Origin: an uncultured Opitutia bacterium
Lineage (GTDB): Bacteria > Verrucomicrobiota > Verrucomicrobiia > Opitutales > Opitutaceae
Reading direction: 5' to 3'
NCBI GenBank assembly: GCA_903873805.1
Contig: CAIQQB010000106.1
Location: 102,672-166,671, forward strand
DNA length: 64,000 nucleotides
The notes beneath the pieces were generated by a model, which made no database searches, was not told where the DNA came from, and saw only the letters and a list, made by a program, of their open reading frames with translations. Shown one piece after another: positions 5,901 through 36,582 of this stretch; the first letter of the stretch is position 1; each line of letters opens with the position of its first letter. Both the position numbers and the translations under genes were made by a program.

Positions 5901-8681
5901 GACCTTCGCCGCCAGATTGGCGTTGGCCTTTTCGAGTTTGGTGCCGGTGTCGGTCTGGGCGGCGGCGGCCTGCGTGAGCCGGTCGTTGGCGGCCCGCTGG
6001 TCCGCGAGCTGTTTCGTGGCGTCGGCAAGCTGTTGCTGCAGGGCGGCGAGGTCGCGGCTTCCGGTCTGGGCGGTGGCGAGGGCGGCGATGGCCTTGTCCC
6101 GCTCGGCCTGGGCCGCCGCGGCGGCCTGCTGGGCGGCGGTGAGCTTGGTCTGGAGGGCGGCGAGATCGGGCCGGTCAGCCGAGGCTTTCTGGGTGTCGGC
6201 GGTGAGCTGGTCGACGCGGGCGGTCAGTTCGGTGTTGGTTCTTTCGAGGTTGGCGGCGACGGTCTGTTGGGTGGCGGCCGACTGGGTGAGCTCTTCGTTG
6301 GTCGTGCGCTGGGCGGCAAGCTGGGCGGTGAGATCGGCCACCTGCTGGCGGAGGGTCCCCTGGGTCTGGGCGGCGGCCTGCTGGGCGGCGGCGAGATCGG
6401 CGTTGGCCTTGTCGCGTTCGGTCTGTGAGAGCTTCACATTCGTGGCGCGCAAGTCGGCCACCAGGGCGTTGGCCGCGGCCATCTGCTGGCGCTGGGTGGC
6501 CCGTTCCTGGTCGGCGCTGCTGTGGGCGGCGGCAAGGTCCGTGGTGGCCTTGTCGCGGGCGGCGAGGGCGTCGCGGGAGGCGGTCTGGGCCTGGGCGGCG
6601 GCCTGCTGGGCGAGCACGAGCGCCTTGTTGGCGGCATCGAGCTGGGTCGCGAGCTTGTCATTCATGGCATGCTCGGCGGCGGATTTCCGGGCGTCGGCGG
6701 CGAGCTGGTCGTTGCGGACGGCGAAGTCGGAGTTGGCCTTTTCCAGCCGTGTGACGATGGCCTGCTGGGTGGCGGCGCTCACGGCGAGCTTGTCATTGGC
6801 GGCGCGCAGCTCGGCGAGCTGCGCCGTGGTGGCCTCGAGCTGCTGTTTGAGCGCCGTGGTCTGCTGGGTCTGGTTTCCGGCCGCGGCCACGCGCGCGGTG
6901 GCGTCACTCAGCTGGGCCTGGGCCGCCACCAGTTCGCGGGCGGCGGCTGTCCGGGCGCGCTCGGCGTCGGTGGCGAGCTGGGTCTGGGCGGCGACGGCGG
7001 CGTGGTCCTTTTCGGTCTGAAGGGCGAGCTTGGCGTTGGCGGCGCGGAGTTCCGCCAGCTGGCGTTCGGCATCGGGATTGGCGGCGGGAGTGGCCGGCGG
7101 GGTCGCGGCGAGTCGGCTGTTGTCGGCGATCAGGCTGGCCTTCTCCGTCGCGAGGCGCTCGTTGTCGGCGCGCAGTCCGGCGATGACCGCGTTGAGCGCG
7201 GCGTCGGAGGCGGGGGGAGTGCTGGCGGCGTCGGCGCCGGCGGGCTGGGTGGCCGTGGCGCTCAGCTGGCGGCGGATGTTGCCGAGTTCGATGGAGGCGC
7301 TTTTCACCTCGTCGTTGAGCCGGCGATTGTCGTCGGAAAGACTGCGGATGTGGTTTTCGTCGTCGGCGAGGCTCTGGCGGAGACGGGTGGCGTCGTCGGC
7401 GCCGGCGGTGCCGGTGGCGGCGGTGACGCGGAGTTGGGCGTTTTCGGCGGTGAGCTGTTCGACGCTGGCGCGGGCGGCGGCGAGCTGCGCGGTGAGATCG
7501 GGTGACGGCTGGGGGGCGGGGGTGGCGGCGGCCTTTTCGCGGGCGAGCTGCTGGTTGGTCTCGACCAGCTGGAGGTTGGTGGCGCGGGCCTGGGCAAGTT
7601 CCGTTTCCAGGCTGCGGACCCGGGCGGCGAGGGCGGCGGTGTCAGCCGATGGTACCGGCACAGCGGCCGGCGTGGGGGCGGGCGTGATGGCGGAGACGGA
7701 GACGGGGGTGGGAGCGCTGGTGCTGGCGGGCGGCGGCCGAGTGGGGCGGGCGGCCTCGGCGAGGAGCGGGGCGGTGGGGGCCAGACGGCTGCGCAGGCTG
7801 GCGAGCTGGGTGCGGCCGGCGGCGAGCTGGGCTTCGGACATGCGCTGCACAACCAGGTCGCGTCCCTTGGGTTCGGAGCCGTTTTCAACCGCGAGGGAGA
7901 GCCAGGCGTAGCCTTCGGGCAGATTGGCTTCAGCCCCGCCGCGGCCTTCGGCGATCATGATGCCGAGGTTGTTCTGGGCCGGCCCGAAGTTTTGTTCGGC
8001 GGCGGCGCGGTAGAGGGTGGCGGCGACGGCGTCGCTGTGGGCGACGCCGCGACCCTCCTCATACATCAGGGCGAGATTGTAGCGGGCGCGGGCGTAACCC
8101 TGGTCGGCGGCGGCCCGGTACCATTGTGCGGCCTTGGTGTCATCCTGCACGACGCCGCGGCCCAGTTCGTAGGCGAGGGCGAGGTTGTGCTGGGCCTCGG
8201 GCAGGCCGCTCTTCGCCGCCTGGCTGAACCAGACGGCCGCCTCGAGGAAATCCTGCTTCACGCCGAGACCGTTGCCATACATGTTGCCGACATTGAACTC
8301 CGCCGGCGGGTAGCCCAGCTGGGCGGACTGCAGGTAGAGCTTGAAGGCCGCGACGAGGTCGGCGGGCTGGTCCCGGCCGGTTTCCGCGAGGGTGCCGAGG
8401 TTGAAGATGGCCGGGGCGTAATGCTTGTCCGCAGCCGCGTGATAAAGCTGGGCGGCCTGGGCGTAATCCTGGGCGACGCCCTCGCCGTTGTTGTAGGCAT
8501 TGCCGAGGAGGGTGAGGGCGGCGGGATCGCCGCTGGCGGCTTTTTCGCGGATGGTGCGGAGGTCGGGCGCGGCGGAGTCGGCGGCGAGGAGGGGCAGGGC
8601 GAGCAGCGCGAGCAGAACCAAAATCTGGCTGGGTTGAAAAGCGGGGAAATGCCGCGATCGAAGGGGGAGCAATTGGGTCAT
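2901..8681 (-). CDS. giant (1926-aa) secreted protein: signal peptide, Sel1/TPR-like repeats, a ~1500-aa Ala/Gln-rich coiled coil with 136-aa tandem repeats, and a C-terminal LysM peptidoglycan-binding domain
   Basis: The likely start is the ATG at 8681 (MTQLLPLRSRHFPAFQPSQILVLLALLALPLLAADS); the ORF-track start at 8690 is a GTG. Sel1 repeats of the form 'A..L..GYP.A.FNVGNMYGNGLGV.QD...A..W' span about 7870-8525. Heptad-rich repeats include 'ESDKAVEQHNASVAELTG' twice, exactly 136 aa apart. The LysM motif 'YHLVAEGETLTRISLRYYG…LRAGQKLRIP' occupies about 2904-3059. Confidence 0.8.
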   Translation of the reverse strand: MTQLLPLRSRHFPAFQPSQILVLLALLALPLLAADSAAPDLRTIREKAASGDPAALTLLGNAYNNGEGVAQDYAQAAQLYHAAADKHYAPAIFNLGTLAETGRDQPADLVAAFKLYLQSAQLGYPPAEFNVGNMYGNGLGVKQDFLEAAVWFSQAAKSGLPEAQHNLALAYELGRGVVQDDTKAAQWYRAAADQGYARARYNLALMYEEGRGVAHSDAVAATLYRAAAEQNFGPAQNNLGIMIAEGRGGAEANLPEGYAWLSLAVENGSEPKGRDLVVQRMSEAQLAAGRTQLASLRSRLAPTAPLLAEAARPTRPPPASTSAPTPVSVSAITPAPTPAAVPVPSADTAALAARVRSLETELAQARATNLQLVETNQQLAREKAAATPAPQPSPDLTAQLAAARASVEQLTAENAQLRVTAATGTAGADDATRLRQSLADDENHIRSLSDDNRRLNDEVKSASIELGNIRRQLSATATQPAGADAASTPPASDAALNAVIAGLRADNERLATEKASLIADNSRLAATPPATPAANPDAERQLAELRAANAKLALQTEKDHAAVAAQTQLATDAERARTAAARELVAAQAQLSDATARVAAAGNQTQQTTALKQQLEATTAQLAELRAANDKLAVSAATQQAIVTRLEKANSDFAVRNDQLAADARKSAAEHAMNDKLATQLDAANKALVLAQQAAAQAQTASRDALAARDKATTDLAAAHSSADQERATQRQQMAAANALVADLRATNVKLSQTERDKANADLAAAQQAAAQTQGTLRQQVADLTAQLAAQRTTNEELTQSAATQQTVAANLERTNTELTARVDQLTADTQKASADRPDLAALQTKLTAAQQAAAAAQAERDKAIAALATAQTGSRDLAALQQQLADATKQLADQRAANDRLTQAAAAQTDTGTKLEKANANLAAKVDQLTADAQKSAAAQPNLAALQTQLDDAGRALAVAQQAAAQARTDRDKLAAQLATAQAGSGDQAAQTTTLRQQVTDLTTKLAAQQAAADKLAQANTDLTARADKLAADNQRLSTAPAEASGADAAELTRLKTELDTLQQETATRRTENSRLAAELFEANKTNKDTQAAAAASTAKTDGLAKELEAARQTAAQAQTAARDEAARELAGLRQQLADANTRLSAAGDQAQQLAATTAQLAEQRAAAEKLTKDAADQAARLTALTAENQRLAAEKQSLAATTQEATAAAAENTRLKAALTAAQKEQAALGAQLDDTSKTLAASQQAAAQAQTAARDALAARDKTSTDAEHNLGALRLQLAEANARLSTAADQTKQDAVLRQQLAALSAQLDEQRSANAALDKARADLAARNEQLAATASDQAQDHAAVSQLATQLSNERAASAKLSQTVSGLQAEVQRLTADNQQLSAGSRDAATAAAEVARLRIALAAAQQAQATGGNATLLASQLDEANKALDSSQKTVAELTGRNDSLEKDLEVAKQGTAAALAAQAAAAAAVPAAAASQLEIHTLQARVQQVESQLEEDRGNSAREISQLADQLSRSRDTNKLLAEANRALLDSKSTEDSMSKTEADQLAAKARDLATTNSRLQQEADAARAQAESSQVEADRNRSALADFKAKLAESDKAVEQHNASVAELTGLNDKLTTSNTDLQQQLAQLRPLLDQARAELAELKPRYTATESLTRQQNAAVDDLTAAKTRLETEKAALAKQLAAAQADAARLSQLQQAADDARTQADAVRTEADKSRIELAELKARLAESDKAVEQHNASVAELTGTNEKIATEREQLRQSLDGVNAQLSSLQADNARLTAGQQTLASLQADNARLSEQVQALDRDRGARLAQAQQENSALSARLRQAQSTLDQIASAARLINPGAGPLPTPATPSSGGTDADQPRYHLVAEGETLTRISLRYYGTPNRWQEIYEANRDVLKGENSLRAGQKLRIP

Positions 8682-8912
8682 TTTGCGCACGCCTCTCGTT
8701 TAGGGTGAAAACCCCAGCGGGCAAGCCGCGAGTTACGAGGCTGGCGGTGAGTGCGCCGCGGCAGGTTATGTTTGGGCCCCCGTTTCCCAGAGCCTGACTC
8801 TACAATCCTCCCTTGAAACCTCGCGTTTGGCTCCCCGTCATCACTTGTGCGCCGGTTCCGGTCGCCCGGTCTGACCTTGGTCTGTTCACCGCGAACGGTA
8901 CCTGTCGACCCC

Positions 8913-14625: not shown

Positions 14626-14982
14626 TTAGGACTTAGGTGTTAGGCTTTGGCGCAGGGCCTCCAGTTTGGCCCCCAAGACTTTGGTCTCGTCAACGAGGCC
14701 TTGGGTGGCAGCGGAATCCGCGAACTTCAAATCAGACAGCAAGTACAACTGCGTCCTGACCTCGGCGGCCGAACCTTTGGCGATACCGATGAAATGCCGG
14801 AACTCGGCGCTGGAGTTACGCTCGGCTCCTTCGGCGATGTTTGACGCGACCGACACGGCCGCCCGCCGTAACTGGTCACGCAAGGCCCAGTCCTGCAACC
14901 CGGAAGTCAGACGATAGACTGCCACGGCCAGCGCACGGGCGCGTTGCCAGACCTCAAGTTGTTCGAAAGATTGGTAAGCCAC
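14626..14982 (-). CDS. four-helix-bundle protein (23S rRNA intervening-sequence protein family, TIGR02436-like)
   Basis: 118 aa; '[23 protein letters not shown]…[30 protein letters not shown]' is characteristic. It uses a GTG start at 14982 and lies between gmd and fcl. Confidence 0.75.
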
Positions 14983-16053: not shown

Positions 16054-16150
16054 GTGGGCGGGAAACTACGCGGAGCATGGCGGACGAAGCAAGCCGTTCG
16101 CGCACGGGGGGGCGTCCGGGAGTTGGCCCTCGCCACGCGGATCGAAAAAT

Positions 16151-16246
16151 GTGGGCGGGGTGCCCTCACCCCGCTTCCGTGGCCGAAATCGCGCCGGGGA
16201 CGTCGCGCTCCACCTCAAACCAGCGGGGTGAGGGCACCCCGCCCAC
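16151..16246. mobile_element. REPIN: two REP hairpin units in inverted orientation (a perfect 24-nt inverted repeat gtgggcggggtgccctcaccccgc / gcggggtgagggcaccccgcccac) flanking a 48-nt spacer
   Basis: Read directly from the gmd-blaR1 intergenic region. Each unit is an 8-bp GC stem (GCGGGGTG/CACCCCGC) with a 4-5 nt loop. All frames give the REP-derived peptides 'GEGTPP' and 'AGCPHPA' in the ORF track. Confidence 0.8.
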
Positions 16247-16346
16247 ACCTCAAGCAACGCGCCGGAGATCGCGTTCCACCTCGGGACAGGCCCGGCTTTT
16301 GGTGATGCAAAGACTGAGCTGCACGCGCCCGCTCACGCAGCGGGTA

Positions 16347-19300
16347 TTACCGGCCGCTGCCGCCCACGATGCGGGCGGTGATCAGCATGAGCATCCGGCG
16401 CTCGGGTAAGGAGCGGTTCGTGATCTGCACGTGCTGATCTCGAATCGGAGCAAAATTCTCCTTCACCGGCACCATGGCGAAAACCGCCGTGCCGCCGTCG
16501 GGGACGGGATACCCTTGCGGGGGTACCTGCGGTTCATCCGGCTTCGGGGGATTGGTAGCAGGGTCGCCCTCGGTCGAGGCGGCAAACTTCGGCCCCCATG
16601 CATCGCCGAACTCGAAAACCGGCCGGCCGCCCGTGGGCCAGGCCGGGTTGCCGGCCTCCGCGCCAATGGAACGGTCCCCGTCGCCCACCTTGGCCCCGTT
16701 GGCGAGGACCGTCATGTAGGCGTTCATATCCTTGAGCCGGATGGTATGCCCGTCGTCATCCACCGCGACTGTGATCATGAGTTCGGCGCCGAGGGCGCGG
16801 ACGGTGAAATCTTGCGGCGTGCCGGCAGGAGGAGCGGGCGCGGCGCCTGGAGCGGCGGGGCTGGGCGTCTCACCGTAAGACTGGGGATAGATGAGTTCCG
16901 AACCCGCACTCGCCATGGCCCGATTGCTGGGGAGAACGATCATGTCCGGCACGGCCAGCAGCGTGGACCGGCCGGGCGGCTGGGTAAGCGCGCGGAGCAG
17001 GGCCGGAATGTCGAAGCGGCCCGTCAGCGGCGGCGGGGTGTTCGATCCGCCGTCCACCGATTCGGAACCCACCGGGATGGTCAGGGTGCCGGGCCGGGAC
17101 CCGTCGAGCAGATAGCGGCCCAGGTCCAGCGCCGCGAAATCCTCCGCGCTCATCTCCACCATCCTCGCCTCAATCGCCACGTTGGTACGCGAGGACAGCT
17201 GGACCGCGATCGCCCGGATCTTTTCGAGATTGGCGGCTGTCTGCGTCACGCGGATGCCCGTGCCGGTGAAGGTGAGACTGGCGCCCGGGACACTGGCAAA
17301 GTCCACGCCCTGCCTCTTGAACCACTCCAGCTCGGCCCGGGGCTTCGCTGCGGGAGGGTCGTCGTCAAACGGATCACCCGGATTATTCTCTTTAAACTTC
17401 AGCAGTGTTTCCATGGCCTCGCGCGGCAACGCAAACGTGGCGCGGCTCAGGCCGGACGGGATGGCGGCGGGCGCGGGCGGATCGGCTTCCACTGGCGTGA
17501 CGGCGGTAGCTGCCCGACCAGGCGTCACCACCCGCACGGTTGTGAAGGTGACGACACCACGGGTGGGCCACGGCGGGTTCGCTTCGAGCGAGAGGAAATG
17601 GGGCGCGGTTCCGCCGGCCGGGCCGGCCACAGGTGACGCGACCATCTGATCCCGGCCCGAGGCGCTTGTGATGAGCGTGGCCCCGTCCCAGAGCGCCAGC
17701 TTGCCGGAAGTCTCACGGGTGGCAAATAACGGCTTGATGACGCTGCCGGTGGCCGTGCTGCCGACGGGAAATGGGCCGATGGGGCTGGCTCCGGACAGGG
17801 TCGGAAATTCCAGCCAGCCCGTCAGGGTGGTATGGCGCGAAATATACGGCAGCAGGATGGTGTGGTTGTCCTCTTCGAGCACCGCTATCGCACGCAACTC
17901 ATTTCCGATGACTCGGGTGGTGTAGGCCCATTCCGTGCGCCGGCCGGACTGGCCGAGGATATCGGCCAAGTCGTTTCCGCGATAATTCTGATCTTCGCCG
18001 GCATCCATCGTCGCGCCCATGCCGGAGGATACGGTCGCAGACCGATGGCCGAGCACCCGGCCGCCCGATTTTTGCTCGAGGGCGCGCACCATCCCGGCCA
18101 CGTCGAATTCCCCGAGGATCAGATCCCCGGTGGAAAACCGTTCGCCGGGCGCCAGCGGGGAGCCGGACGGCTTGGTGCGGAACTTCTCCGGATCGATGGC
18201 GCGCAGGTCCTCCGGCGATGCGTCCACCATCTGGATGTCAAAGGCGAGCCGGCCGGTTTCGCCGCCGTAGTTGGCGGAGTTGCCGCCCGACGTCCACAGT
18301 TCGGTCCGCGGCGGATCGCCACAGTAAGCCAGCATCTTGGCGAGCGCGTCCAAGTTATAGGCGGTCTGTCGCACGACCAGCGTGTCGCCCTTGAGCACGA
18401 AGCTGGAACCGGGCACGCCCGCGAAGCCGACGCCCCAGTGTGCAACCCTTTCGATCAACACGGGCAGCACGTCGGCCTCGCTCACATTGGGGCCGATGAT
18501 GCGGAACAGCTTGGCACGGCTGAGCGGGAAGGCCCGCTCCTCAAGTCTGTCGGCGGTGGACGGTAATCCCCGCGACGCGGGAGAAGCACCGCTCACGCCG
18601 GTCGGTGCGGCCGCCGGCACGCCTTTCTTAACCTCGCGCCCGCCAAAATCCGTCACATAGACGGTGCCCGCTCCGTCCACGGCAATGCCGTAAGGACTCG
18701 AAAACTGGGCCGCGCTTCCCGTCCCGTCCACGCTGATCAATTCGCCACGACTGCCACCCAGGGTCGTTACGACTCCGGCCGATGTGATCTTCCTGACGGC
18801 ACCATTGCCCATGTCGGCGACATAGACGTTGCCCGCTTTGTCCACCGCGACGCCGACGGGGAAAACCGTGTCAACCCCGCCCGTGCCCAGCTGGGGCCGG
18901 CCAAACCGGGCGGCACTCCCGATGCCGTCGACCTTTCCGGGCTCGCCTGCCTTGCCCGCCATCGTCGTGACCAATCCCGCCGGCGTGACTTTCCGAATCG
19001 TGTAGTTATGAGAATCCGCCACGTAGATATTCCCGGCTTCGTCCACCGCGACCCCCATCGGCCGGTTGAATCGGGCGGCGCTCCCGAGACCGTCCGCGCT
19101 GCCGGCCTTTCCCGCCAAGCCGGCGAGCGTCGTGACCACTCCGGTCGGAGTGATTTTTCTGACCGTGTTGTCCAACGCATCGGCGATGTAGACGTTGCCC
19201 GCTTGGTCCACCGCGATTCCTTGGGGATAATCAAACTGGGCCGCGCTCCCAACCCCGTCAATTGAGACGCCGCTCTCGATGGCGGCCTCGTTGCCGGCCA

Positions 19301-20759
19301 GAACAGTCACAACGCCGTCGGGTGAGATCTTCCGGATCTTGGTATCCGCCGTGTAGAGGTTGCCGGCTGCGTCAGCGGCGATAAAGGTGCTGCCCGACAA
19401 GTTGTTGCCCGCCTTCATGCTCATGGTGCTCCCACCCCCGTCGGGCCCGATTTTCGAGATGATGTGGGTGCCGCTTTCCATCGCAAAGACTTTGCCCGCT
19501 GCGTTCACTGCCACTCCGCCGGGAAAATGATCGAAATCGATTAGGGTCGTGAAGGTGTAGGGCGTGGCATAATCCAGGGCGCTTTCGGCTGGCGGACTTC
19601 CGATGGTGGTGGACGACGACGGGGCCGATGACGCTGGTGCGGCGACTTGGGCGTCGGTCAGGCCGATGAGGGCGAGGCCGGCGGTGAGGGCGAGCGCGAA
19701 GACCGGCCCGCGGCGGCGGGGGGCGAAGCTGGCGATCTGGCTGATGCGCTGGCGCAGGCGCCGTTTGTCCTCCAGAATGCCCACCAGCCCTGGCGTCATC
19801 GGCTGGGGGACAAAACTTTCCAGGAGGCGGAGGATGGTCCGGCCGTAGGCGGTGTTGTGGCCGGGACCGGCGGCCTCGAGGGCGAGCGCGTCGCAGGCCA
19901 GTTCGCGGTCGGCCCGCCAACGGGCGAACGCGAGCCAGACGAGCGGGTTGAACCAGTGAACGGCCTGGAGCAGCGACAGAAGCCAGTTGACCGGCAGGTC
20001 GCGACGTTTCACGTGGGCGAGTTCGTGCAGTAGGACGTAGTCGAGCTCGGCGGCCGAAAACTTTTGCACAAAGCCGGCGGGCAGCAGCAGGCGGGGCCGC
20101 CAGCAGCCGTAAAGTGCGGGACTGCCGAGCCGGTCGCATTCGTGGATGGGCAGCGGAGCGGCGGCGAGTCCGAGCCGGCGTTGGGCGGTTCGCAGCCGCT
20201 CGTCAACGGCCGGATCGCGCAGGCGGCGTGCGGGCCGGAAGCGCCGGGCGAGCACGATGGTGGAAAGCAGGAGGCAGGCACACATTGCCAGCGCGCCGGT
20301 GAGCCAGAGACCGAGCAGGAGACGCGACCAGTGGAAGGGGGTTGGCGCCGGCGTGGGGGCGGCGGCGGGTGGCGCGGCGGTGGCGACTCCGGAGGCTGGC
20401 GCGGCGCGGGGTGGGGCGGATTCGGCGGAGCTTTCCGTCGGGGCGGCGGGCGCACGGGTGAGCCCGAGGGGCCGGTCGAGGCCGTGCAGCGCCTGGGGAT
20501 CACCGGATATTCCCGGAGGCGGCCGCATGGCGGTTTCGGCCGGGCGGCGAAGAGGCGGGACGAGGTTGAACAGACTGGCCGCGCTGTGGAGTGAAACGGG
20601 GACGAGCAGGCGCGCGGCCACGAGCAGCCAGAGCGCGCACCGCCAGTGGGGTGGGATCTGGCGGCGAAACACGGTTTGCGCCACAAGGATGAGCAGGGCG
20701 AGTGCCCCCGCCTGCGCGGAGCTGCGCCCAAGAGCGGCGAGGAACCCGGAAGCGTTCAT
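16347..20759 (-). CDS. BlaR1/MecR1-like M56 sensor metallopeptidase fused to an NHL-repeat beta-propeller and two tandem secretin-like (GspD/secretin C-terminal-type) modules
   Basis: 1470 aa from the ATG at 20759 (MNASGFLAALGRSSAQAGALALLILVAQ…). The ORF-track start at 21137 would overlap blaI. It carries the M56 HEXXH motif 'LLHELAHVKRRD' and about 6 NHL repeats of the form 'GNVY(I/V)AD..N..(I/V)RK(I/V)TP.GVVTT(L/M)AG'. Two modules follow, each ending in a secretin-like tail; the last is 'RRMLMLITARIVGGS'. Confidence 0.8.
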   Translation of the reverse strand: MNASGFLAALGRSSAQAGALALLILVAQTVFRRQIPPHWRCALWLLVAARLLVPVSLHSAASLFNLVPPLRRPAETAMRPPPGISGDPQALHGLDRPLGLTRAPAAPTESSAESAPPRAAPASGVATAAPPAAAPTPAPTPFHWSRLLLGLWLTGALAMCACLLLSTIVLARRFRPARRLRDPAVDERLRTAQRRLGLAAAPLPIHECDRLGSPALYGCWRPRLLLPAGFVQKFSAAELDYVLLHELAHVKRRDLPVNWLLSLLQAVHWFNPLVWLAFARWRADRELACDALALEAAGPGHNTAYGRTILRLLESFVPQPMTPGLVGILEDKRRLRQRISQIASFAPRRRGPVFALALTAGLALIGLTDAQVAAPASSAPSSSTTIGSPPAESALDYATPYTFTTLIDFDHFPGGVAVNAAGKVFAMESGTHIISKIGPDGGGSTMSMKAGNNLSGSTFIAADAAGNLYTADTKIRKISPDGVVTVLAGNEAAIESGVSIDGVGSAAQFDYPQGIAVDQAGNVYIADALDNTVRKITPTGVVTTLAGLAGKAGSADGLGSAARFNRPMGVAVDEAGNIYVADSHNYTIRKVTPAGLVTTMAGKAGEPGKVDGIGSAARFGRPQLGTGGVDTVFPVGVAVDKAGNVYVADMGNGAVRKITSAGVVTTLGGSRGELISVDGTGSAAQFSSPYGIAVDGAGTVYVTDFGGREVKKGVPAAAPTGVSGASPASRGLPSTADRLEERAFPLSRAKLFRIIGPNVSEADVLPVLIERVAHWGVGFAGVPGSSFVLKGDTLVVRQTAYNLDALAKMLAYCGDPPRTELWTSGGNSANYGGETGRLAFDIQMVDASPEDLRAIDPEKFRTKPSGSPLAPGERFSTGDLILGEFDVAGMVRALEQKSGGRVLGHRSATVSSGMGATMDAGEDQNYRGNDLADILGQSGRRTEWAYTTRVIGNELRAIAVLEEDNHTILLPYISRHTTLTGWLEFPTLSGASPIGPFPVGSTATGSVIKPLFATRETSGKLALWDGATLITSASGRDQMVASPVAGPAGGTAPHFLSLEANPPWPTRGVVTFTTVRVVTPGRAATAVTPVEADPPAPAAIPSGLSRATFALPREAMETLLKFKENNPGDPFDDDPPAAKPRAELEWFKRQGVDFASVPGASLTFTGTGIRVTQTAANLEKIRAIAVQLSSRTNVAIEARMVEMSAEDFAALDLGRYLLDGSRPGTLTIPVGSESVDGGSNTPPPLTGRFDIPALLRALTQPPGRSTLLAVPDMIVLPSNRAMASAGSELIYPQSYGETPSPAAPGAAPAPPAGTPQDFTVRALGAELMITVAVDDDGHTIRLKDMNAYMTVLANGAKVGDGDRSIGAEAGNPAWPTGGRPVFEFGDAWGPKFAASTEGDPATNPPKPDEPQVPPQGYPVPDGGTAVFAMVPVKENFAPIRDQHVQITNRSLPERRMLMLITARIVGGSGR

Positions 20760-21169
20760 GGCACGGGCCTTTTCTTTTGGGGTTTCGGTGCGCCGGGGGC
20801 TTTCTTGTCGAGCAGGATACGCAACTCGTCCAGGTCCTGCGGGGTGAGATGCTGGCGCTCGACCAGGTGGGCGAGCATCGGGCGGAACGAACCGCCGAAC
20901 ACGCGCTCGACAAAGCTCTCGCTGGCCGCCGCCACGCAGTCGGCCTCGGAAACGAGCGGGATGTAGGCATAGGCCCGGCCCTGCGGCTGGTAGCCGAGCG
21001 CCTTCTTCTGGACGAGGCGGGCGAGCAGCGTGCGGGCGGTCTTGGGGTGCCAGCTGGGATCGCGCGCTGTGAGTGTGGCGATGATGTTGGCGGCGGTGGC
21101 GGGGCTGCGGGCCCACACCACGCGCATCAGCTCCCATTCAGTGTCGGAAATACGCGGGGCGGTCTTCAT
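20756..21169 (-). CDS. BlaI/MecI/CopY-family transcriptional repressor (winged helix), translationally coupled to the BlaR1-like gene
   Basis: 137 aa from the ATG at 21169 (MKTAPRISDTEWELMRVVWARSPATAANIIATLTAR…). The stop TGA (20758-20756) overlaps the blaR1 start ATG (20759-20757) as ATGA. Confidence 0.85.
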   Translation of the reverse strand: MKTAPRISDTEWELMRVVWARSPATAANIIATLTARDPSWHPKTARTLLARLVQKKALGYQPQGRAYAYIPLVSEADCVAAASESFVERVFGGSFRPMLAHLVERQHLTPQDLDELRILLDKKAPGAPKPQKKRPVP

Positions 21170-21338
21170 GGGTGACGCCCACAATTGTAATCCATAGCGG
21201 CACGTCAAGACTACAAATGTAGTTTATGCCAGGTTTTAATCAGGGCTGATCGGATGGATCGTGGCGGGCCGCGGTTCAATTCACTTCGGGGAGCGCGACG
21301 TCCTGGCTCGCCTGGCTTTAGCCGCCTTGGTGAGAAAT

Positions 21339-21362
21339 GTGGGCGGAGTGCCCTCACCCCGC
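21339..21362. mobile_element. solitary REP unit (gtgggcggagtgccctcaccccgc), one mismatch relative to the REPIN arms
   Basis: Same hairpin and same upstream 'gaaa(a)atgtgggcgg' context as the REP at 16151. It lies in the intergenic region between blaI and the DHFR-like gene. Confidence 0.7.
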
Positions 21363-21497
21363 GGGTTTGGCCGGACAAACCGGGGCGGGGGCGCCCCGGC
21401 TCCAGGGTGCAGACGCGGCGCGCTTGGTGGCGTATTCATTTCGGACTGGAAATAGCGCGCGCTTGCGGCGCGGCGGAGGGCCGCCAAGCTGCGCCCC

Positions 21498-23023: not shown

Positions 23024-23044
23024 GCGGGGTGAGGGCACCCCGCC
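23024..23044. mobile_element. solitary REP unit (gcggggtgagggcaccccgcc) downstream of valS
   Basis: Identical hairpin core to the REPIN arm at 16223-16246. Confidence 0.7.
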
Positions 23045-23066
23045 TGCATCGAATTGCGAGCACCAC

Positions 23067-28909: not shown

Positions 28910-29026
28910 CCCGTGGCCGGAAGGCCGTGACGGAGCGGTGGAAACCGCCCCCTGTACCAGGCGTCTTCCTGTTGCTATTGCGATTTTGGGCGGCATGCTT
29001 TGTCCAATCCGCCCCTCCCGCACCCC

Positions 29027-30682
29027 ATGAAAGAGCGGCTTTCCCACATCGTCCCCCTGACTCTGGCCATTGGTGTGGCCGGCGGGCTCCTGTGGTGGCT
29101 GCAGCTCCCTGGGAGCGGCCACGCCGTCACCGCGGCCAATCCCTCCGAACCGGATCAGGGACCGGCCAGCGTTCCGGCCGCGGCGTCGGAGCTCGACGCC
29201 GAGGCGCTCGCCCGGCTCCGGGCGGCCACGGCGGACGGGACGGGGCTGCTGGCCAAATTTCTACAGGAGCTGGATCCGGCTCACGCGCGGATCAATGAGG
29301 CGGTGCTCACCTTCAAGGATGCGGCCGCCTTCCGGGCCTTTCTGGGGCGGGCGGGGGCGGCCGGGCTGCAGGTGCTCGGCCGGATTGACGGTCTGCTGAC
29401 GGCGCGCGTCCGCTTTGCCTCGCTTTCCGCGCTGCAGACCGAAGTGGTGAGCAACATCGCCGACCTCGTGGACGTGAGCGCGAACATCATTGTGCAGGCC
29501 CCGGCGCTGCCGCCACCGGAGGCGCGGGCCGGGGTGCAGCAGGTGCCGATCAACAACAACCTGCTCGCATCGCTGGGGGTGACGGGCGACCACAGCCAGT
29601 GGGGCGCGGGCGTGACCATCGCGGTGCTCGACAGCGGCGTGGCCCCCGATCCCACGTTCGGATCCCGGGTGCAGTTTCTTGATGTCGGGCTCGGTACCGG
29701 CGTGACCCCGGGAGACGCCCATGGCACCTCGGTCGCCTCGATTGCCGCCGGCATGGCGGGGGATGCGCCCGGTATCGCACCGGCGGCCGGCATCCTCAGC
29801 GTGCGGATTACGGCGGCCGACGGGACGAGCGATCTCTTCACCCTCTCGCAAGGGATCATGGCCGCGGTGGACAAGGGGGCGCAGGTCATAAACATCAGCA
29901 TGGGCAGCTACTCGACCACCGGCCTGCTGACTGCGGCGATCGACTATGCCGGACAACATGGGGCGGTCGTGGTCGCTTCGGCCGGCAACGACCAGGCGTC
30001 GCAGCTGGTTTGGCCGGCCGCGGACCCCCGGGTGGCCTCGGTCGGGGCAGTGGATGCCGTGGAGCAGCAGGTGATCTTTTCCAACGCCGGTCCGCAGCTG
30101 AAGATCACCGCCCCCGGTTATGACGTGCAGACCGCCGGACTGGACGGCCAGCGGGTGCTGTTCACCGGCACCTCGGCGAGTGCGCCGGTGGTGGCGGGTG
30201 CCATTGCGGCGATGATCTCCCAGAATCCGGGAATGGATGCACCCCAAGCCTGGCAGGTGCTGCAGCAGTATGCCAGCGATGCGGGCACGCCGGGCCCGGA
30301 TCCCAACTACGGAAACGGCATCGTGAATCTCGGCTGGGCCATGAACCGCGCCGACGCCTCACGCATTGACACGGCGGTCGCCAGCCCGACTTACGACCCA
30401 CTGACGAGCACCGTGGACTATCTGGTGCAAAATCGCAGCGGCATGGGCATGGGCGGCATGCAGCTCAACCTCGACATCAGCGGGGTGTCCAGCAGTTACA
30501 CGCTGCCCTGGCTGGATGCCGGGGCGACGACCGTCGTGCAGGCCGCCATCGATCCGTCGCGCCTCACCACGTCGGGCAATCTGGTCCTACGGGCGCAACT
30601 GGTCAATCCGCCCGGATTTCAGGACGTGGTGCCGGCCAACAACCGCCGGGCGAGCGTCCTCACGCCGCCTCCGGCGAAGTAG
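29027..30682 (+). CDS. secreted subtilisin-like serine protease (peptidase S8)
   Basis: 551 aa from the ATG at 29027 (MKERLSHIVPLTLAIGVAGGLLWWL…); the ORF-track start at 29000 is TTG. The catalytic triad reads 'IAVLDSGV' (Asp), 'HGTSVASIAAG' (His) and 'GTSASAPVVAGAIAAM' (Ser). Confidence 0.85.
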   Translation: MKERLSHIVPLTLAIGVAGGLLWWLQLPGSGHAVTAANPSEPDQGPASVPAAASELDAEALARLRAATADGTGLLAKFLQELDPAHARINEAVLTFKDAAAFRAFLGRAGAAGLQVLGRIDGLLTARVRFASLSALQTEVVSNIADLVDVSANIIVQAPALPPPEARAGVQQVPINNNLLASLGVTGDHSQWGAGVTIAVLDSGVAPDPTFGSRVQFLDVGLGTGVTPGDAHGTSVASIAAGMAGDAPGIAPAAGILSVRITAADGTSDLFTLSQGIMAAVDKGAQVINISMGSYSTTGLLTAAIDYAGQHGAVVVASAGNDQASQLVWPAADPRVASVGAVDAVEQQVIFSNAGPQLKITAPGYDVQTAGLDGQRVLFTGTSASAPVVAGAIAAMISQNPGMDAPQAWQVLQQYASDAGTPGPDPNYGNGIVNLGWAMNRADASRIDTAVASPTYDPLTSTVDYLVQNRSGMGMGGMQLNLDISGVSSSYTLPWLDAGATTVVQAAIDPSRLTTSGNLVLRAQLVNPPGFQDVVPANNRRASVLTPPPAK

Positions 30683-30687
30683 CTGGG

Positions 30688-31746
30688 TTACGGCGCGGCG
30701 GAACCGGCAACCGTCGTGACCACTCCGGCCGGCGTGATGCGGCGGATCCGGCCGTTGTCCGAGTCGGCCACGTAAACGTTGCCGGCCCCGTCCACCGCCA
30801 GACTCCGCAGACCCGCGAACCCCGCGGCCGCGCCCGTGCCATCGGCGCTGCCGGACTGCCCGGCCTGGCCCGCCAGCGTGGTGACGACGCCCGCCGGGGT
30901 GATCTTGCGGACGATGGCGTTGTCGGTGTCGGCGACATAGACGTTGCCGGCGGCATCGGCGGCGAGCCCGCGCGGGGCGCCGAAGCTGGCGGCGCTGCCG
31001 GTGCCGTCCTTGCTGCCGGTGTCGCCAGCCTTGCCGGCCAGGGTGGTGACAACGCCGTCCGGGGTGATCTTGCGGATGTTGGAATTGCCCTCGTCGGCCA
31101 CGTAGAGGTTGCCGGTGGGATCGCTGGCGATCCCGCGCGGGGTGGCGAGGCGGGCGGACGTACCGGTGCCGTCGGTGCTGCCGCTCTCGCCCGCCTTGCC
31201 CGCAAAAATCGTGATCTTGCCGGCGGGGGTGACTTTGGCGATGCTGCTGCTGCCGTTGTTGGCGACGTAGGCGTTGCCGGCGGCATCGGTGGCCACGCTG
31301 ATGGGGCCGCTGATCAGGCCGTCGCTGCCGGTGCCCGTCGCGCTGGCGATGGTGGTGATTTTGCCGTCCGGCGCGATCCGGTGGACGGCGCCCCCGTCGA
31401 CATCGGCCACGAAGATGTTGCCAGTGGCATCCACTGCGAGGCCGCTGGGAGACTGGAAGGGTCCGGCGCCGGCCGCGCCGCCCCAGGAGGTGACCTTGCC
31501 GGCGGGCGTGAGGCGGTAGACGAGGCCGTCGGTGAAGTCGCCGATGTAGAGATTGCCGGCGGCGTCGACGGCGACGGCGCGGGGATTGGTGAGGCTGACG
31601 GCGACAAAATGGTCGAGCGCGGCGGCGGATTTTTTGATGTCAGCCGGGGCGGCTTTGGTCTCGGCGGCGGCGGGAGCCGGGGTGGTCGCGCCGGAGGCCG
31701 AGAGAGTCAGGACGAGGCTGCAGAGCAGGGCGGGGGTGGATTTCAT
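30688..31746 (-). CDS. secreted NHL-repeat beta-propeller protein, paralogous to the NHL region of the BlaR1-like protein
   Basis: 352 aa from the ATG at 31746 (MKSTPALLCSLVLTLSASGATT…). There are about 7 repeats of the form 'GN(L/V)YVAD..N..(I/V)R(K/R)ITP.G.VTT(L/V)AG'. It is convergent with the S8 protease, with the two stops 5 nt apart. Confidence 0.8.
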   Translation of the reverse strand: MKSTPALLCSLVLTLSASGATTPAPAAAETKAAPADIKKSAAALDHFVAVSLTNPRAVAVDAAGNLYIGDFTDGLVYRLTPAGKVTSWGGAAGAGPFQSPSGLAVDATGNIFVADVDGGAVHRIAPDGKITTIASATGTGSDGLISGPISVATDAAGNAYVANNGSSSIAKVTPAGKITIFAGKAGESGSTDGTGTSARLATPRGIASDPTGNLYVADEGNSNIRKITPDGVVTTLAGKAGDTGSKDGTGSAASFGAPRGLAADAAGNVYVADTDNAIVRKITPAGVVTTLAGQAGQSGSADGTGAAAGFAGLRSLAVDGAGNVYVADSDNGRIRRITPAGVVTTVAGSAAP

Positions 31747-32144
31747 GGGAAGGAAAACGGGGAAGCCGGTGGTAACAGGGGAGATAATGACATGCCCCGT
31801 CGCCGGTGATTTGTCGAGCCCGGGATGTACGCGGGGCGGAGGGAGCGCAGGTTTCCCGCCTGCCAATCCAAGCCTGCAGGCAAGGATGCCTGCGCTACTT
31901 GGCTGCCGAGTCAGAGCGCGCCGTCACAAAGACACTTCGGATTTTTGGCGTCGTCAATCGGTCGGTGAATTCTTTGATCAAGCAGGAAAGGGAGCCAGAT
32001 GATGGCCCTGAAGCCCAAGTATCCCAAGCGACGGAAGCGAAAGAAATACACAACGACCAAGCGAGTGGCGGTATGCCCGCCGGCAATACAAACGGGCTTT
32101 ACCGACGAAGCGGGGAGCATCCACCGCCTCGTGGTGAAGAGTGC

Positions 32145-36534: not shown

Positions 36535-36582
36535 GGTGAAATGGTCGGGAGGTGGACAGGCGATTTGCCGGCGGGCCGGCGC

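What the first reader, a model, noticed from the sequence alone, without database searches (positions are those of the whole stretch)
16347..21169. BlaI repressor coupled to a 1470-aa BlaR1-type M56 sensor protease fused to an NHL propeller and two tandem secretin-like modules
A BlaI/MecI/CopY repressor (20756..21169) overlaps by ATGA the start of a giant protein. That protein has an N-terminal peptidase-M56 (BlaR1) domain with an intact HEXXH (HELAH). In place of the beta-lactam sensor domain it carries about 6 NHL repeats and then two successive modules, each ending in a secretin-type C-terminal tail; the second ends '…RRMLMLITARIV'. This looks like a BlaR1-like signal-transducing protease wired to an outer-membrane-channel-like or ligand-binding propeller module rather than a penicillin-binding domain. 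A free-standing paralogous NHL propeller is encoded next to an S8 protease at 29-31.7 kb.
Basis: partly seen in the sequence, partly recalled or inferred. Interest (0 to 1): 0.6.

Follow-up and report, generated by a model that had tools for sequence, protein, structure and literature searches.

The report
BlaI/BlaR1-like sensor with secretin-derived periplasmic modules
A repressor gene and a giant membrane protease gene form a BlaI/BlaR1-type signalling pair in which the usual antibiotic-sensing domain is replaced by a beta-propeller and two copies of a degenerate outer-membrane-channel (secretin) module; this is an uncharacterised variant of a sensor family that is common in Verrucomicrobia.

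Summary
A 137-aa BlaI/MecI-type repressor gene (20756-21169, minus strand) overlaps by ATGA an intact 1470-aa ORF (16347-20759). That protein has four TM helices, a Peptidase_M56 domain with HELAH and ELACD zinc ligands, a six-bladed NHL propeller, and two paralogous ~350-aa modules.

Pfam's Secretin model does not hit the modules. They are still secretin homologues:
- A profile built only from free-standing PVC-type secretins scores 150 bits; shuffled controls score at most 5.5.
- AlphaFold models of both modules retrieve only secretins at the top of PDB fold searches.

Both modules lack the conserved amphipathic-helical-loop motif and have a truncated beta-lip region. These are the two parts that put a secretin into the outer membrane, so an outer-membrane pore is unlikely.

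The architecture is not unique. Dozens of Verrucomicrobiota proteins combine Peptidase_M56 and Secretin, and blaI lay directly upstream at every locus examined. The closest M56 relatives carry many other periplasmic domains. Two TACAnnTGTA boxes precede blaI, here and in a relative.

Best reading: a self-regulated proteolytic signalling pair with an unknown periplasmic signal. One caveat: a sister strain carries a nonsense codon in the gene, and constraint on module A looks weak. I rate it a new variant of a known kind, of moderate interest.

The parts
21210..21223 (-). Operator box 1: perfect 14-bp palindrome ACTACAnnTGTAGT (TACAnnTGTA core) upstream of blaI
   Evidence: This is the only perfect TACANNTGTA match in the 64-kb window; sequence read. 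The relative L096 has the same type of box upstream of its blaI.
21179..21190 (-). Operator box 2: TTACAATTGTGG (one mismatch to TACAnnTGTA). It lies 32 bp from box 1 and ends 9 nt before the blaI ATG, and it contains a TACAAT hexamer.
   Evidence: No canonical sigma-70 promoter was called here: TTGACG and TACAAT are separated by only 13 nt.
20756..21169 (-). blaI-like gene: 137-aa BlaI/MecI/CopY-family winged-helix repressor
   Evidence: Pfam Penicillinase_R 2e-32 over the full model. NCBIfam BlaI_of_BCL 8.5e-37, below its cut-off. MecI 1sd6 7.5e-22 over residues 6-123. There is no C-terminal CxC metal motif.
16347..20759 (-). 1470-aa ORF: M56 protease, NHL propeller and two secretin-derived modules; its start overlaps the blaI stop (ATGA)
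   Evidence: GC3 is 0.78, similar to the neighbouring genes. The ORF is collinear with the independent contig L095.
19734..20732 (-). Peptidase_M56 (BlaR1-type gluzincin) region, aa 10-342, with TM1-TM3 (aa 13-31, 39-64, 145-174)
   Evidence: Pfam 4.4e-57. Aligns to S. aureus BlaR1 structure 8exp residues 161-266. Hydropathy.
20013..20027 (-). HELAH zinc-binding motif (aa 245-249), aligned with BlaR1 H201-E202-x-x-H205
19890..19904 (-). ELACD (aa 286-290): third zinc ligand in the ExxxD motif, aligned with BlaR1 E242...D246
   Evidence: Motif definition taken from bioRxiv 10.64898/2026.08.03.742534.
19638..19712 (-). TM4 (aa 350-374), ending in the conserved GLTDAQ junction after which relatives carry different periplasmic domains
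   Evidence: Hydropathy. The junction is conserved in P0278, P0371, P0382 and P0369, which have different C-terminal domains.
18621..19526 (-). Six-bladed NHL beta-propeller (aa ~412-713)
   Evidence: Pfam NHL 1.4e-23 and TEN_NHL 9e-20. Six DNA repeat copies. 42% identical to the free-standing NHL protein at 30688-31866.
17505..18545 (-). Secretin-derived module A (aa 739-1085): alpha-beta-beta-alpha-beta N-domain plus a degenerate secretin core, with a short 'lip' and no AHL motif
   Evidence: Profile of canonical secretins only: core hit at aa 879-1039, i-E 3.5e-10. AF2 model has pLDDT 69.5, and its top 34 PDB hits are all secretins. Lip region is 36 residues against a canonical median of 99.
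16350..17450 (-). Secretin-derived module B (aa 1104-1470), ending in RRMLMLITARIVGGSGR, with a short 'lip' and the AHL replaced by 10 residues
   Evidence: NCBIfam Amuc_1098_fam 5e-11 at aa 1125-1211. Canonical-only profile i-E 4e-14 and 3e-15. AF2 model has pLDDT 74 and pTM 0.65, and its top 15 PDB hits are all secretins. Lip region is 44 residues.
16149..16176 (-). Terminator-like GC hairpin followed by a T-run, ~170 nt after the stop codon; also one copy of a REP-like palindrome

Best explanation
This is a two-gene, self-contained BlaI/BlaR1-type regulated-proteolysis signalling unit from a Verrucomicrobiota chromosome. Each step below is marked as shown or inferred.

1. **Repression (inferred).** The BlaI-like dimer binds the two TACAnnTGTA boxes over its own promoter and start region, and represses blaI and the M56 gene.
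2. **Topology (inferred from hydropathy and the positive-inside rule).** The 1470-aa protein sits in the inner membrane with four TM helices. Its gluzincin M56 domain faces the cytoplasm. About 1,090 residues after TM4 lie in the periplasm.
3. **Sensor region (homology shown; location and role inferred).** The periplasmic part replaces the penicillin-binding sensor of BlaR1. It consists of a six-bladed NHL propeller and two tandem modules descended from PVC-type secretins. [quoted passage not shown] I therefore read them as periplasmic binding or oligomerisation domains and not as a pore.
4. **Signalling (inferred by analogy with BlaR1/MecR1).** An unknown periplasmic or envelope signal, received by the propeller and/or the modules, activates the protease. 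The protease cleaves BlaI and derepresses the operon, and possibly unlinked targets.
For: **BlaI**
- Full-length Penicillinase_R match and a MecI alignment that includes the PKTxRTLxxRL recognition helix.

**M56 protease**
- 193.9 bits.
- HELAH and ELACD align to BlaR1 H201/E202/H205 and E242/D246.
- Four hydrophobic segments place the protease between TM3 and TM4.

**Operators**
- The only perfect TACANNTGTA in 64 kb, plus a one-mismatch copy 32 bp away, lie directly upstream of blaI.
- The relative L096 (M56 48% identical) has CTACAAGTGTAG and TTACATTTGTAGT in the same position.

**Conserved gene pairing**
- blaI lies directly upstream of the M56 gene at all six independent loci checked: the window, P0003, P0161, P0198, P0382 and P0278. 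In the window, P0382 and P0278 the two genes overlap by 4 nt.

**Secretin ancestry of the modules**
- A profile of the four modules finds 1165 proteins. Their top members are Pfam Secretin proteins.
- A canonical-only profile scores 150.6 bits against at most 5.5 for 400 shuffles.
- The PVC-type family profile matches GspD/PilQ chains at 1e-28.
- Fold searches return only secretins at the top.

**Loss of membrane-embedding parts**
- The AHL motif is absent from both modules.
- The lip region is 36 and 44 residues, against a median of 99 and a minimum of 50 in 133 free-standing relatives.
- The AHL regex is present in 122 of 146 free-standing hits but in only 3 of 59 M56+Secretin proteins.
- The beta-lip and AHL are the only membrane-contacting parts of secretins (PMC6532946; PMC10653833).

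**Variable sensor position**
- The closest M56 relatives (45-68% identical) carry CarboxypepD_reg, thioredoxin, PD40, vWA, STN/Secretin_N, NHL or unknown domains after the same GLTDAQ junction.
Against: - No experiment links any non-PBP M56 protein of this kind to BlaI cleavage, and the signal is unknown.
- The residues aligned with the MecI/BlaI scissile bond N101-F102 are H-L here.
- No sigma-70-type promoter is called at the operators.
- No obvious regulated target gene lies nearby; the neighbours are housekeeping genes.
- The 94%-identical sister contig has TGG->TGA at codon 275 of the M56 domain. Pairwise dN/dS is 0.84 for module A and 0.58 for module B, against 0.32 for M56. The gene may therefore be dispensable or decaying in this lineage.
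- Assigning the truncated segment to the beta-lip rests on its position in the sequence (N3, then lip, then PF00263). It does not rest on a residue-level superposition.
- Both AF2 models used alignments that contain canonical secretins, and global TM-scores are low (0.22-0.29).
Confidence: 0.68

Rival explanations
1. Trans-envelope device. The two secretin modules still multimerise and associate with the outer membrane. One polypeptide would then link an outer-membrane ring to an inner-membrane protease and report the ring's state (assembly, opening, passage of a substrate or pilus) to BlaI.
For: - The modules keep the whole N-domain plus the secretin beta core, and the C-terminal tail strand.
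- Their models match secretin protomers.
- The segments that replace the lip are the best-conserved stretches between the window and the 43%-identical P0002. An example is PEDLRAIDPEKFRT.
- About 330 residues of propeller and linkers could span the periplasm.
Against: - The AHL motif is absent and the lip region is shorter than in any of 133 free-standing relatives. These are the membrane-contacting parts.
- No hydrophobic segment occurs after TM4.
- In the common ~600-aa M56+Secretin proteins the core starts only ~40-70 residues after TM4, with no N-domains. This argues for a periplasmic role for this domain class.
- No pilotin, pilus or T2SS genes lie in the 64-kb window.
Confidence: 0.12
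2. A decaying or dispensable gene. The fusion arose by recent domain shuffling and is under relaxed selection, with no working sensor function.
For: - The sister contig L095 has a TGA at codon W275, between HELAH and the third zinc ligand.
- dN/dS is 0.84 for module A, 0.58 for module B and 0.46 overall.
- Pfam cannot recognise the modules.
- Only two relatives of the C-terminal half were found among 5.8 billion clustered proteins.
Against: - The window copy is an uninterrupted 4.4-kb ORF with all catalytic residues, an intact coupled blaI and intact operators.
- Both modules are conserved at 43% identity, in the same A-B order, in a distant relative (P0002). That implies long-term constraint.
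- dN/dS at dS of about 0.05-0.15 is inflated by polymorphism, and is based on few substitutions (19.5 synonymous against 45.5 nonsynonymous in module A).
- The single TGA could be a metagenome assembly error or a strain-specific loss.
Confidence: 0.12
3. The protein is mainly an envelope protein with an M56 membrane anchor, comparable to the M56-TonB fusions of Bacteroides. The C-terminal modules would do structural or transport work and the protease would not signal through BlaI.
For: - M56 domains are fused to TonB C-terminal domains whose function is uncharacterised (bioRxiv 10.1101/2023.07.07.548152). M56+TonB_C architectures also appear.
- The periplasmic part makes up three quarters of the protein.
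Against: - The strictly conserved, translationally coupled blaI at six of six loci, with paired operators, is hard to explain without a repressor-protease relationship.
- The catalytic residues are intact.
Confidence: 0.06

Closest known systems
BlaR1/BlaI and MecR1/MecI of Staphylococcus aureus and Bacillus licheniformis
   Same: - Four-TM M56 gluzincin with HExxH and ExxxD.
- An adjacent BlaI-family winged-helix repressor.
- TACA/TGTA palindromic operators.
- The presumed logic is the same: an extracytoplasmic signal leads to cleavage of the repressor.
   Different: - There is no penicillin-binding sensor domain. NCBIfam blaR1_generic scores 148 bits against a cut-off of 400 and matches only model positions 104-305 of 585.
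- Here blaI comes first and overlaps the M56 gene.
- No beta-lactamase or PBP target gene is adjacent.
- The host is a diderm.
- The scissile N-F bond aligns with H-L.
Peptidase_M56 + Secretin proteins of Verrucomicrobiota (database entries named only 'M56 family metallopeptidase' or 'beta-lactamase regulating signal transducer'; for example P0003, P0161, P0382)
   Same: - An M56 domain followed by a secretin-derived domain that lacks the AHL motif (56 of 59 proteins).
- blaI directly upstream, with paired palindromic operators.
- P0003 and P0151 also have two tandem cores.
   Different: - Most are ~600 aa, with a single core, no N-domain and no propeller.
- Their M56 and BlaI belong to a different lineage: at most 35% identity over ~200 aa, with TGCTAA-N4-TTAGCA operators.
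- P0382 belongs to the window's M56 clade but has only one module and no NHL.
- I found no literature describing any of them.
Secretins (GspD, PilQ, InvG, pIV; PVC-type Amuc_1098 family)
   Same: - N-domain (alpha-beta-beta-alpha-beta) plus the secretin beta-sheet core and the C-terminal tail strand.
- Profile and fold matches.
   Different: - No signal peptide; the modules are tethered to an inner-membrane protein.
- Two modules sit in one chain.
- The AHL motif is missing and the beta-lip region is truncated.
- Pfam PF00263 is not matched.
- The Amuc_1098 model scores 41 bits against a cut-off of 750.
Sensor-less or atypical BlaI/BlaR pairs (Mycobacterium Rv1846c/Rv1845c; Pseudomonas aeruginosa PvmSR)
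   Same: A BlaI/M56 pair not tied to beta-lactam sensing, with HExxH and ExxxD retained.
   Different: Those lack an extracytoplasmic sensor domain altogether. This one has ~1,090 periplasmic residues.
M56-TonB_C fusions (Bacteroides TonB1/TonB10, Xanthomonas) and FecR/STN trans-envelope signalling
   Same: An inner-membrane signalling protein carries a periplasmic domain borrowed from outer-membrane machinery. M56 relatives with STN, Secretin_N or TonB_C domains occur in the same searches.
   Different: The borrowed domain is different (a secretin core, not TonB_C or STN). No TonB-dependent transporter or sigma/anti-sigma partner lies at this locus.

Membership tests
BlaR1/MecR1-type M56 signal transducers | Peptidase_M56 domain above the curated threshold | tested here: met
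   PF05569: 193.9 bits against a cut-off of 31; aa 10-342 cover model positions 3-296 of 296.
BlaR1/MecR1-type M56 signal transducers | Zinc ligands HExxH plus a downstream Glu (ExxxD) | tested here: met
   HELAH at aa 245-249 and ELACD at aa 286-290 align to BlaR1 H201/E202/H205 and E242/D246.
BlaR1/MecR1-type M56 signal transducers | Four TM helices with the protease loop between TM3 and TM4 | tested here: met
   Hydropathy peaks at aa 13-31, 39-64, 145-174 and 350-374, and none afterwards. The orientation is inferred from flanking Arg clusters.
BlaR1/MecR1-type M56 signal transducers | C-terminal penicillin-binding (class D beta-lactamase-like) sensor domain | tested here: not met
   There is no transpeptidase or beta-lactamase hit. 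NCBIfam blaR1_generic scores 148 bits against 400 and covers only model positions 104-305 of 585. sensor_BlaR1 and MecR1 score 19 and 48 bits against 1200.
BlaR1/MecR1-type M56 signal transducers | Cognate BlaI/MecI repressor gene in the same operon | tested here: met
   ATGA overlap with a Penicillinase_R gene. The same pairing is seen at five other loci.
BlaR1/MecR1-type M56 signal transducers | Signal-dependent cleavage of the repressor | not testable with these tools
   This needs biochemistry. The position aligned with the MecI N101-F102 bond reads H-L.
BlaI/MecI/CopY repressors | Winged-helix plus dimerisation domain (Penicillinase_R) over the full length | tested here: met
   PF03965 2e-32, model positions 1-114 of 115. 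MecI 1sd6 7.5e-22 over residues 7-123.
BlaI/MecI/CopY repressors | TACA/TGTA inverted-repeat operators at the regulated promoter | tested here: met
   ACTACAnnTGTAGT at 21210-21223 and TTACAATTGTGG at 21179-21190. The perfect box is unique in the 64-kb window. Equivalent boxes occur in L096. Binding itself was not tested.
BlaI/MecI/CopY repressors | CopY-type C-terminal CxCxxxxCxC metal site (copper-sensing subtype) | tested here: not met
   The protein has a single Cys and ends in ...KKAPGAPKPQKKRPVP. TIGR02698 scores 95.8 bits against 121.95.
Secretins (PF00263; GspD/PilQ/InvG) | Match to the Pfam Secretin model | tested here: not met
   No hit on the whole protein at E<=1, and none on the isolated modules at E<=10.
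Secretins (PF00263; GspD/PilQ/InvG) | Homology of the core to bona fide secretins by profile and by fold | tested here: met
   The canonical-only HMM scores 150.6 bits, with hits in both modules, against at most 5.5 for shuffles. The top hits of the module profile are PF00263 proteins. Foldseek's top 15 and top 34 PDB hits are all secretins. Caveats: the model MSAs include secretins, and TM-scores are 0.22-0.29.
Secretins (PF00263; GspD/PilQ/InvG) | Amphipathic helical loop motif (K-V-P-x-L-G-D-I-P-x-L-G-x-L-F), the most conserved secretin element and the inner-leaflet contact | tested here: not met
   Module B has 10 unrelated residues at those profile states and module A has VASPVAGPAGGTAPHFLSLE. 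The motif is present in 122 of 146 free-standing relatives. Equating this motif with the AHL is an inference from PMC6532946, which calls the AHL the most highly conserved region.
Secretins (PF00263; GspD/PilQ/InvG) | Full-length beta-lip region between the N3 domain and PF00263 (the membrane-spanning part) | tested here: not met
   36 residues (A) and 44 residues (B), against a median of 99 and a minimum of 50 in 133 relatives. The segment is assigned to the lip by its position only (PMC10653833).
Secretins (PF00263; GspD/PilQ/InvG) | Sec signal peptide and assembly as a 12-15-mer outer-membrane pore | not testable with these tools
   There is no separate signal peptide, because the modules follow TM4 of an inner-membrane protein. 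Oligomeric state and location need experiments.
Amuc_1098 family type IV pilus outer membrane protein (NF042912) | Score above the NCBIfam equivalog cut-off | tested here: not met
   41.3 bits against a cut-off of 750. Only aa 1125-1211 match model positions 387-480 of 805.
NHL-repeat beta-propellers | Six NHL blades | tested here: met
   PF01436 1.4e-23 with 4 stretches; TEN_NHL 9e-20. Six DNA repeat copies. 42% identity to a free-standing NHL protein.

The most novel reading that the evidence does not exclude
The inner-membrane-tethered, lip-less and AHL-less secretin modules may act as decoy protomers. They would pair by beta-strand augmentation with unassembled or mislocalised PVC-type secretin subunits, or with another envelope beta-sheet client, while the NHL propeller adds a second specificity. 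In that case the blaI/M56-secretin pairs of Verrucomicrobiota would be a dedicated surveillance system for secretin or outer-membrane assembly. This would be a regulated-proteolysis counterpart of the proteobacterial Psp 'secretin stress' response. The repeated recruitment of secretin cores to two different M56/BlaI lineages would then reflect selection for that function.
Probability: 0.08. Interest if true: 0.8.

Novelty: new variant of a known kind. Interest (0 to 1): 0.45.

Why it matters
- **Scale of the family.** BlaR1-type signalling has been studied almost only as a beta-lactam sensor. In Verrucomicrobiota and Planctomycetota the same blaI/M56 cassette has radiated into a large family. 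The periplasmic domain after a conserved TM4 junction is swapped freely: thioredoxins, propellers, vWA, STN and secretin pieces.
- **What this locus adds.** It is an extreme example, and it documents a use of the secretin fold outside outer-membrane pores. The membrane-embedding elements have been systematically removed.
- **Possible payoff.** If the signals could be identified, these pairs would give a new class of one-step envelope-to-transcription sensors for a poorly studied phylum.
- **Limits.** The function is unknown. The particular gene may be under weak constraint. The general M56+Secretin architecture is already visible in databases, though only with generic names.

Tried and rejected
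- **Pfam on the isolated modules at E<=10.** No secretin-related hit; the only hit was a chance Sgs1 match.
- **phmmer of the C-terminal half against PDB sequences.** Only a chance antibody hit.
- **Word-indexed homologue search with the C-terminal half.** Only 2 proteins found.
- **GTDB genome scan with the whole protein.** Only the M56 part found relatives, at up to 47% identity. The source species is therefore not in that collection. The taxonomic call (Verrucomicrobiota, possibly Limisphaerales-like) rests on best hits only.
- **Metagenome-contig scan with the module alignment.** It returned 9 loci: seven canonical free-standing secretins, and two whose longest reading frame I did not resolve. 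None showed an M56 fusion.
- **Assembly chimera.** Rejected, because the independent contig L095 is collinear.
- **CopY-type copper repressor.** Rejected, because there is no Cys motif.
- **Special relationship to the ~600-aa M56+Secretin family.** Not supported. The M56 and BlaI parts are only distantly related and the operators differ. Per module, canonical secretins score as well as the P0003 modules.
- **Sigma-70 promoter at the operators.** None was called.
- **Mobile cassette bounded by the flanking REP-like repeats.** Considered, but composition and GC3 match the neighbours, and the repeats are short hairpins of the REP or terminator kind. Not pursued.
- **Structure of the whole tandem region.** Not predicted.

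Full report
**1. What is in the sequence**

On the minus strand, an ORF of 137 codons (20756-21169) ends in a TGA that overlaps the ATG of a 1470-codon ORF (16347-20759) as ATGA. The longest reading of the second frame (1596 aa from 21137) runs through blaI. It is not the likely start.

The small protein matches Pfam Penicillinase_R over the whole model (2e-32). It aligns with MecI structures at 7.5e-22, including the recognition-helix signature PKTxRTLxxRL.

The large protein has these features:
- A Peptidase_M56 match at aa 10-342 (4.4e-57).
- HELAH at aa 245-249 and ELACD at aa 286-290. These align with H201/E202/H205 and E242/D246 of S. aureus BlaR1 (8exp).
- Hydropathy peaks at aa 13-31, 39-64, 145-174 and 350-374, and none afterwards. 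This gives the BlaR1 arrangement, with the protease loop between TM3 and TM4.

Everything after residue ~375 is therefore predicted to be periplasmic. The host is a diderm: the best M56 relatives are Verrucomicrobiota, Limisphaerales and Planctomycetota MAGs.

**2. The periplasmic part**

Residues ~412-713 form six NHL blades:
- Pfam NHL 1.4e-23 and TEN_NHL 9e-20.
- Six copies of a 37-nt DNA repeat.
- 42% identity (4e-64) to the free-standing NHL protein at 30688-31866, which lies tail-to-tail with an S8 protease gene.

Two modules follow: A (aa 739-1085) and B (aa 1104-1470). They are paralogous (BLASTP 9e-13).

**3. Are the modules secretin-like?**

Curated models mostly say no:
- Pfam Secretin, Secretin_N and STN give nothing, even at E<=10 on the isolated modules.
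- Only the NCBIfam Amuc_1098 model (a verrucomicrobial type IV pilus outer-membrane protein) touches aa 1125-1211, at 5e-11. That is far below its cut-off.

Deeper searches say yes:
- A profile of the four available modules (window A and B; P0002 A and B) was searched against 1.84 billion representative proteins. It found 1165 proteins at E<=1e-3.
- The top hits that I scanned are Pfam Secretin proteins at 1e-28 to 1e-39.
- A profile of the joint alignment, which these free-standing PVC-type secretins dominate, matches GspD and PilQ chains of the PDB at 1e-28.
- As a test that does not depend on my joint alignment, I built an HMM from 45 free-standing secretin segments only. It scores the window protein at 150.6 bits. 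Separate hits fall on the N-domain and the core of both modules: A core 3.5e-10, B 4e-14 and 3e-15. The best of 400 shuffled module sequences scored 5.5 bits.
- AlphaFold2 models of module B (pLDDT 74, pTM 0.65) and module A (pLDDT 69.5, pTM 0.53) show an alpha-beta-beta-alpha-beta N-domain followed by long beta-hairpins.
- In Foldseek searches of the PDB, the first 15 hits for B and the first 34 hits for A are all secretins: PilQ, PulD, GspD, XcpQ, InvG, pIV and BfpB.

Two caveats apply to the models. Their alignments contain canonical secretins. Global TM-scores are low (0.22-0.29), as expected for an extended protomer modelled alone.

**4. What the modules have lost**

In the alignment with free-standing relatives, the modules keep three elements:
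- the N-domain;
- the long strand QVxIEAKFxEV;
- the core, from FDVxAxxRAL...LLSAPxxTV to the tail strand (K)RxLLIFxTAxxV.

Two elements are missing.

- **The AHL motif.** The motif DKVPxLGDIPxLGRLFRS is absent. Module B has 10 unrelated residues at those profile states, and module A has VASPVAGPAGGTAPHFLSLE.
- **The beta-lip region.** The segment between the first strand and the FDV helix is 36 residues in A and 44 in B. In 133 free-standing relatives the median is 99 and the minimum is 50.

According to the literature, the order in PilQ is N3, then beta-lip region, then PF00263 (PMC10653833). [quoted passage not shown] The AHL is also the most conserved secretin segment (PMC6532946). Equating the KVPxLGDIP motif with the AHL, and the truncated segment with the lip, is my inference from conservation and position.

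The same losses characterise M56-fused secretin domains in general. The AHL regex is found in 3 of 59 M56+Secretin proteins, against 122 of 146 free-standing hits.

The short replacement segments are the best-conserved stretches between the window and the 43%-identical P0002. Examples are VDASPEDLRAIDPEKFRT in A and IEARxxEMSAExFAALDLG in B. They are therefore likely to be functional.

**5. The architecture is recurrent**

- P0003 (904 aa) has Peptidase_M56 plus two tandem secretin cores. A 111-aa Penicillinase_R gene lies 5 nt upstream.
- A search seeded with P0003 listed about 60 proteins carrying PF05569+PF00263. Most are ~600 aa. Named sources include Rariglobus, Chthoniobacteraceae and Opitutae. 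Some also carry a C-terminal STN domain, an LptD_N domain or prenyltransferase repeats. Their source names are all generic.
- blaI lies directly upstream at P0161, P0198, P0382 and P0278 as well.

The window's M56 and BlaI do not belong to that ~600-aa family:
- M56 is at most 35% identical over ~200 aa.
- Among the BlaI proteins of those loci, only one gives a BLASTP hit (34% identity).
- The operators differ: TGCTAAnnAATTAGCA x2 in that family, against TACAnnTGTA x2 here.

The window's M56 clade (45-68% identity) carries very different domains after the same GLTDAQ junction: CarboxypepD_reg/Big_1, AhpC/thioredoxin, PD40 propellers, vWA, LamG, SGNH, STN+Secretin_N, NHL (P0369), a single AHL-less secretin module (P0382), or an unknown 170-aa domain in the closest relative P0278.

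Secretin-derived domains therefore appear to have been recruited to BlaI/M56 cassettes at least twice. The window protein combines two options seen separately elsewhere (NHL and secretin module).

The exact combination was found only here and in L095. P0002 encodes the tandem A-B unit without M56. It has no obvious signal peptide and lies after a leuD-like gene.

**6. Regulation**

The only perfect TACANNTGTA in the window is the core of a 14-bp palindrome, ACTACAnnTGTAGT (21210-21223). A second box, TTACAATTGTGG (21179-21190), lies 32 bp downstream of it and ends 9 nt before the ATG.

The window-wide count (3 matches allowing one mismatch, against 1.2 expected) is not significant by itself. 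The argument rests on three other points:
- the two boxes sit side by side at the blaI start;
- L096 (M56 48% identical) has CTACAAGTGTAG and TTACATTTGTAGT at the same place;
- the other lineage has a parallel two-box layout around a TTGACA element.

No canonical sigma-70 promoter is called. A terminator-like hairpin follows the operon at 16149-16176. The neighbours are housekeeping genes: GDP-mannose dehydratase, GDP-fucose synthase, TatC, RF, RibD_C, CysH-like, ValRS and GlnD. No local target is evident.

**7. Integrity and constraint**

Contig L095 comes from another sample. It matches the window at 94.2% over 4540 bp, which excludes a chimera.

L095 carries TGG->TGA at codon 275 of the M56 domain. 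Pairwise dN/dS values are:

| Region | dN/dS |
|---|---|
| M56 | 0.32 |
| NHL | 0.33 |
| Module A | 0.84 |
| Module B | 0.58 |

The counts are small and the divergence is low. There is no neighbouring-gene baseline, because L095 holds only this gene. Even so, relaxed constraint or strain-specific loss is a real possibility. It is the main reason for not rating the functional model higher.

**8. Verdict**

The most likely mechanism is BlaR1-like regulated proteolysis of a BlaI repressor, triggered by an unknown periplasmic cue. The cue would be sensed by a propeller and by secretin-derived modules that are probably not a pore (confidence about 0.68).

Rivals:

| Rival | Confidence |
|---|---|
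| True trans-envelope secretin link | 0.12 |
| Decaying gene | 0.12 |
| Mainly structural envelope protein | 0.06 |

I found no paper describing M56-secretin fusions. M56-TonB fusions are noted in the literature as uncharacterised, and sensor-less BlaIR pairs are known. I class this as a new variant of a known kind, with moderate interest.

Noticed in passing
window 16149-16172 (-), 16225-16248 (+), 21337-21360 (-), 23026-23049 (+): A REP-like GC-rich palindrome (GGGGTGAGGGCACxCCGCCCACAT) occurs four times, against none expected by chance. All copies lie in intergenic gaps within 7 kb around the blaI/M56 operon, and none elsewhere in the 64 kb. Two copies form an inverted doublet just downstream of the big ORF. 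42-nt direct copies bracket the operon (16144-16185 and 21332-21373, 83% identical).
   Followed up: partly
L095 (ena:ERZ27313607:k141_203321), aligned to window 16206-20739: A sister-strain contig, 94.2% identical, has TGG->TGA at codon W275 of the M56 domain, so the gene caller split the gene there. Pairwise dN/dS is 0.32 (M56), 0.33 (NHL), 0.84 (module A) and 0.58 (module B).
   Followed up: yes
window 36583-38214 (-) and 35026-36582 (-): A 543-aa ORF combines sigma-70 regions 2 and 4 with a weak NfeD-like C-terminal match (below cut-off). It lies directly upstream of a flotillin/Band_7 gene. NfeD-flotillin pairs are known, but a sigma-factor fusion would be unusual.
   Followed up: no
window 2901-8699 (-): A 1932-aa ORF with Sel1 repeats and a C-terminal LysM domain lies in the most GC-rich stretch of the window (72-73% GC). 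Long spurious ORFs appear on the opposite strand.
   Followed up: no
window 29000-30682 (+) and 30688-31866 (-): An S8 subtilase gene and a free-standing NHL propeller gene (predicted signal peptide, 42% identical to the fused propeller) lie tail-to-tail, 5 nt apart.
   Followed up: partly
window 14626-14982 (-): A 118-aa ORF ([15 protein letters not shown]...) sits between the GDP-fucose-synthase-like gene and the GDP-mannose-dehydratase-like gene. From memory it resembles the 'four-helix-bundle / 23S rRNA intervening-sequence protein' family. I did not test this.
   Followed up: no
L092 1-854 and 2051-4976 (JGI 3300045996, Rariglobus-like): A Thioredoxin+Secretin fusion protein, an ECF sigma factor and two unannotated genes lie immediately upstream of a blaI/M56-Secretin pair. 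This suggests that secretin cores serve as general periplasmic modules in this phylum.
   Followed up: no
L096 2204-3433: A group II intron reverse transcriptase (RVT_1+GIIM) lies just upstream of the blaI/M56-Secretin pair of P0382.
   Followed up: no
L001 5556-5617, L092 4534-4596, L094 4555-4616: The ~600-aa M56-Secretin family uses different paired operators. L001 and L092 have boxes built on TGCTA/TAGCA half-sites (TGCTAAnnAATTAGCA; the second L001 box is ATGCTATAAGCTTAGCAT), and L094 has TGTTAAAAATTTAACA. The second box overlaps the blaI start codon, which implies a leaderless or near-leaderless mRNA.
   Followed up: partly
window 54799-56814 (-): A 671-aa Peptidase_M48 protein (2e-29), another membrane zinc protease, is followed on the other strand by small ORFs. 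I did not check it for a regulator partner.
   Followed up: no
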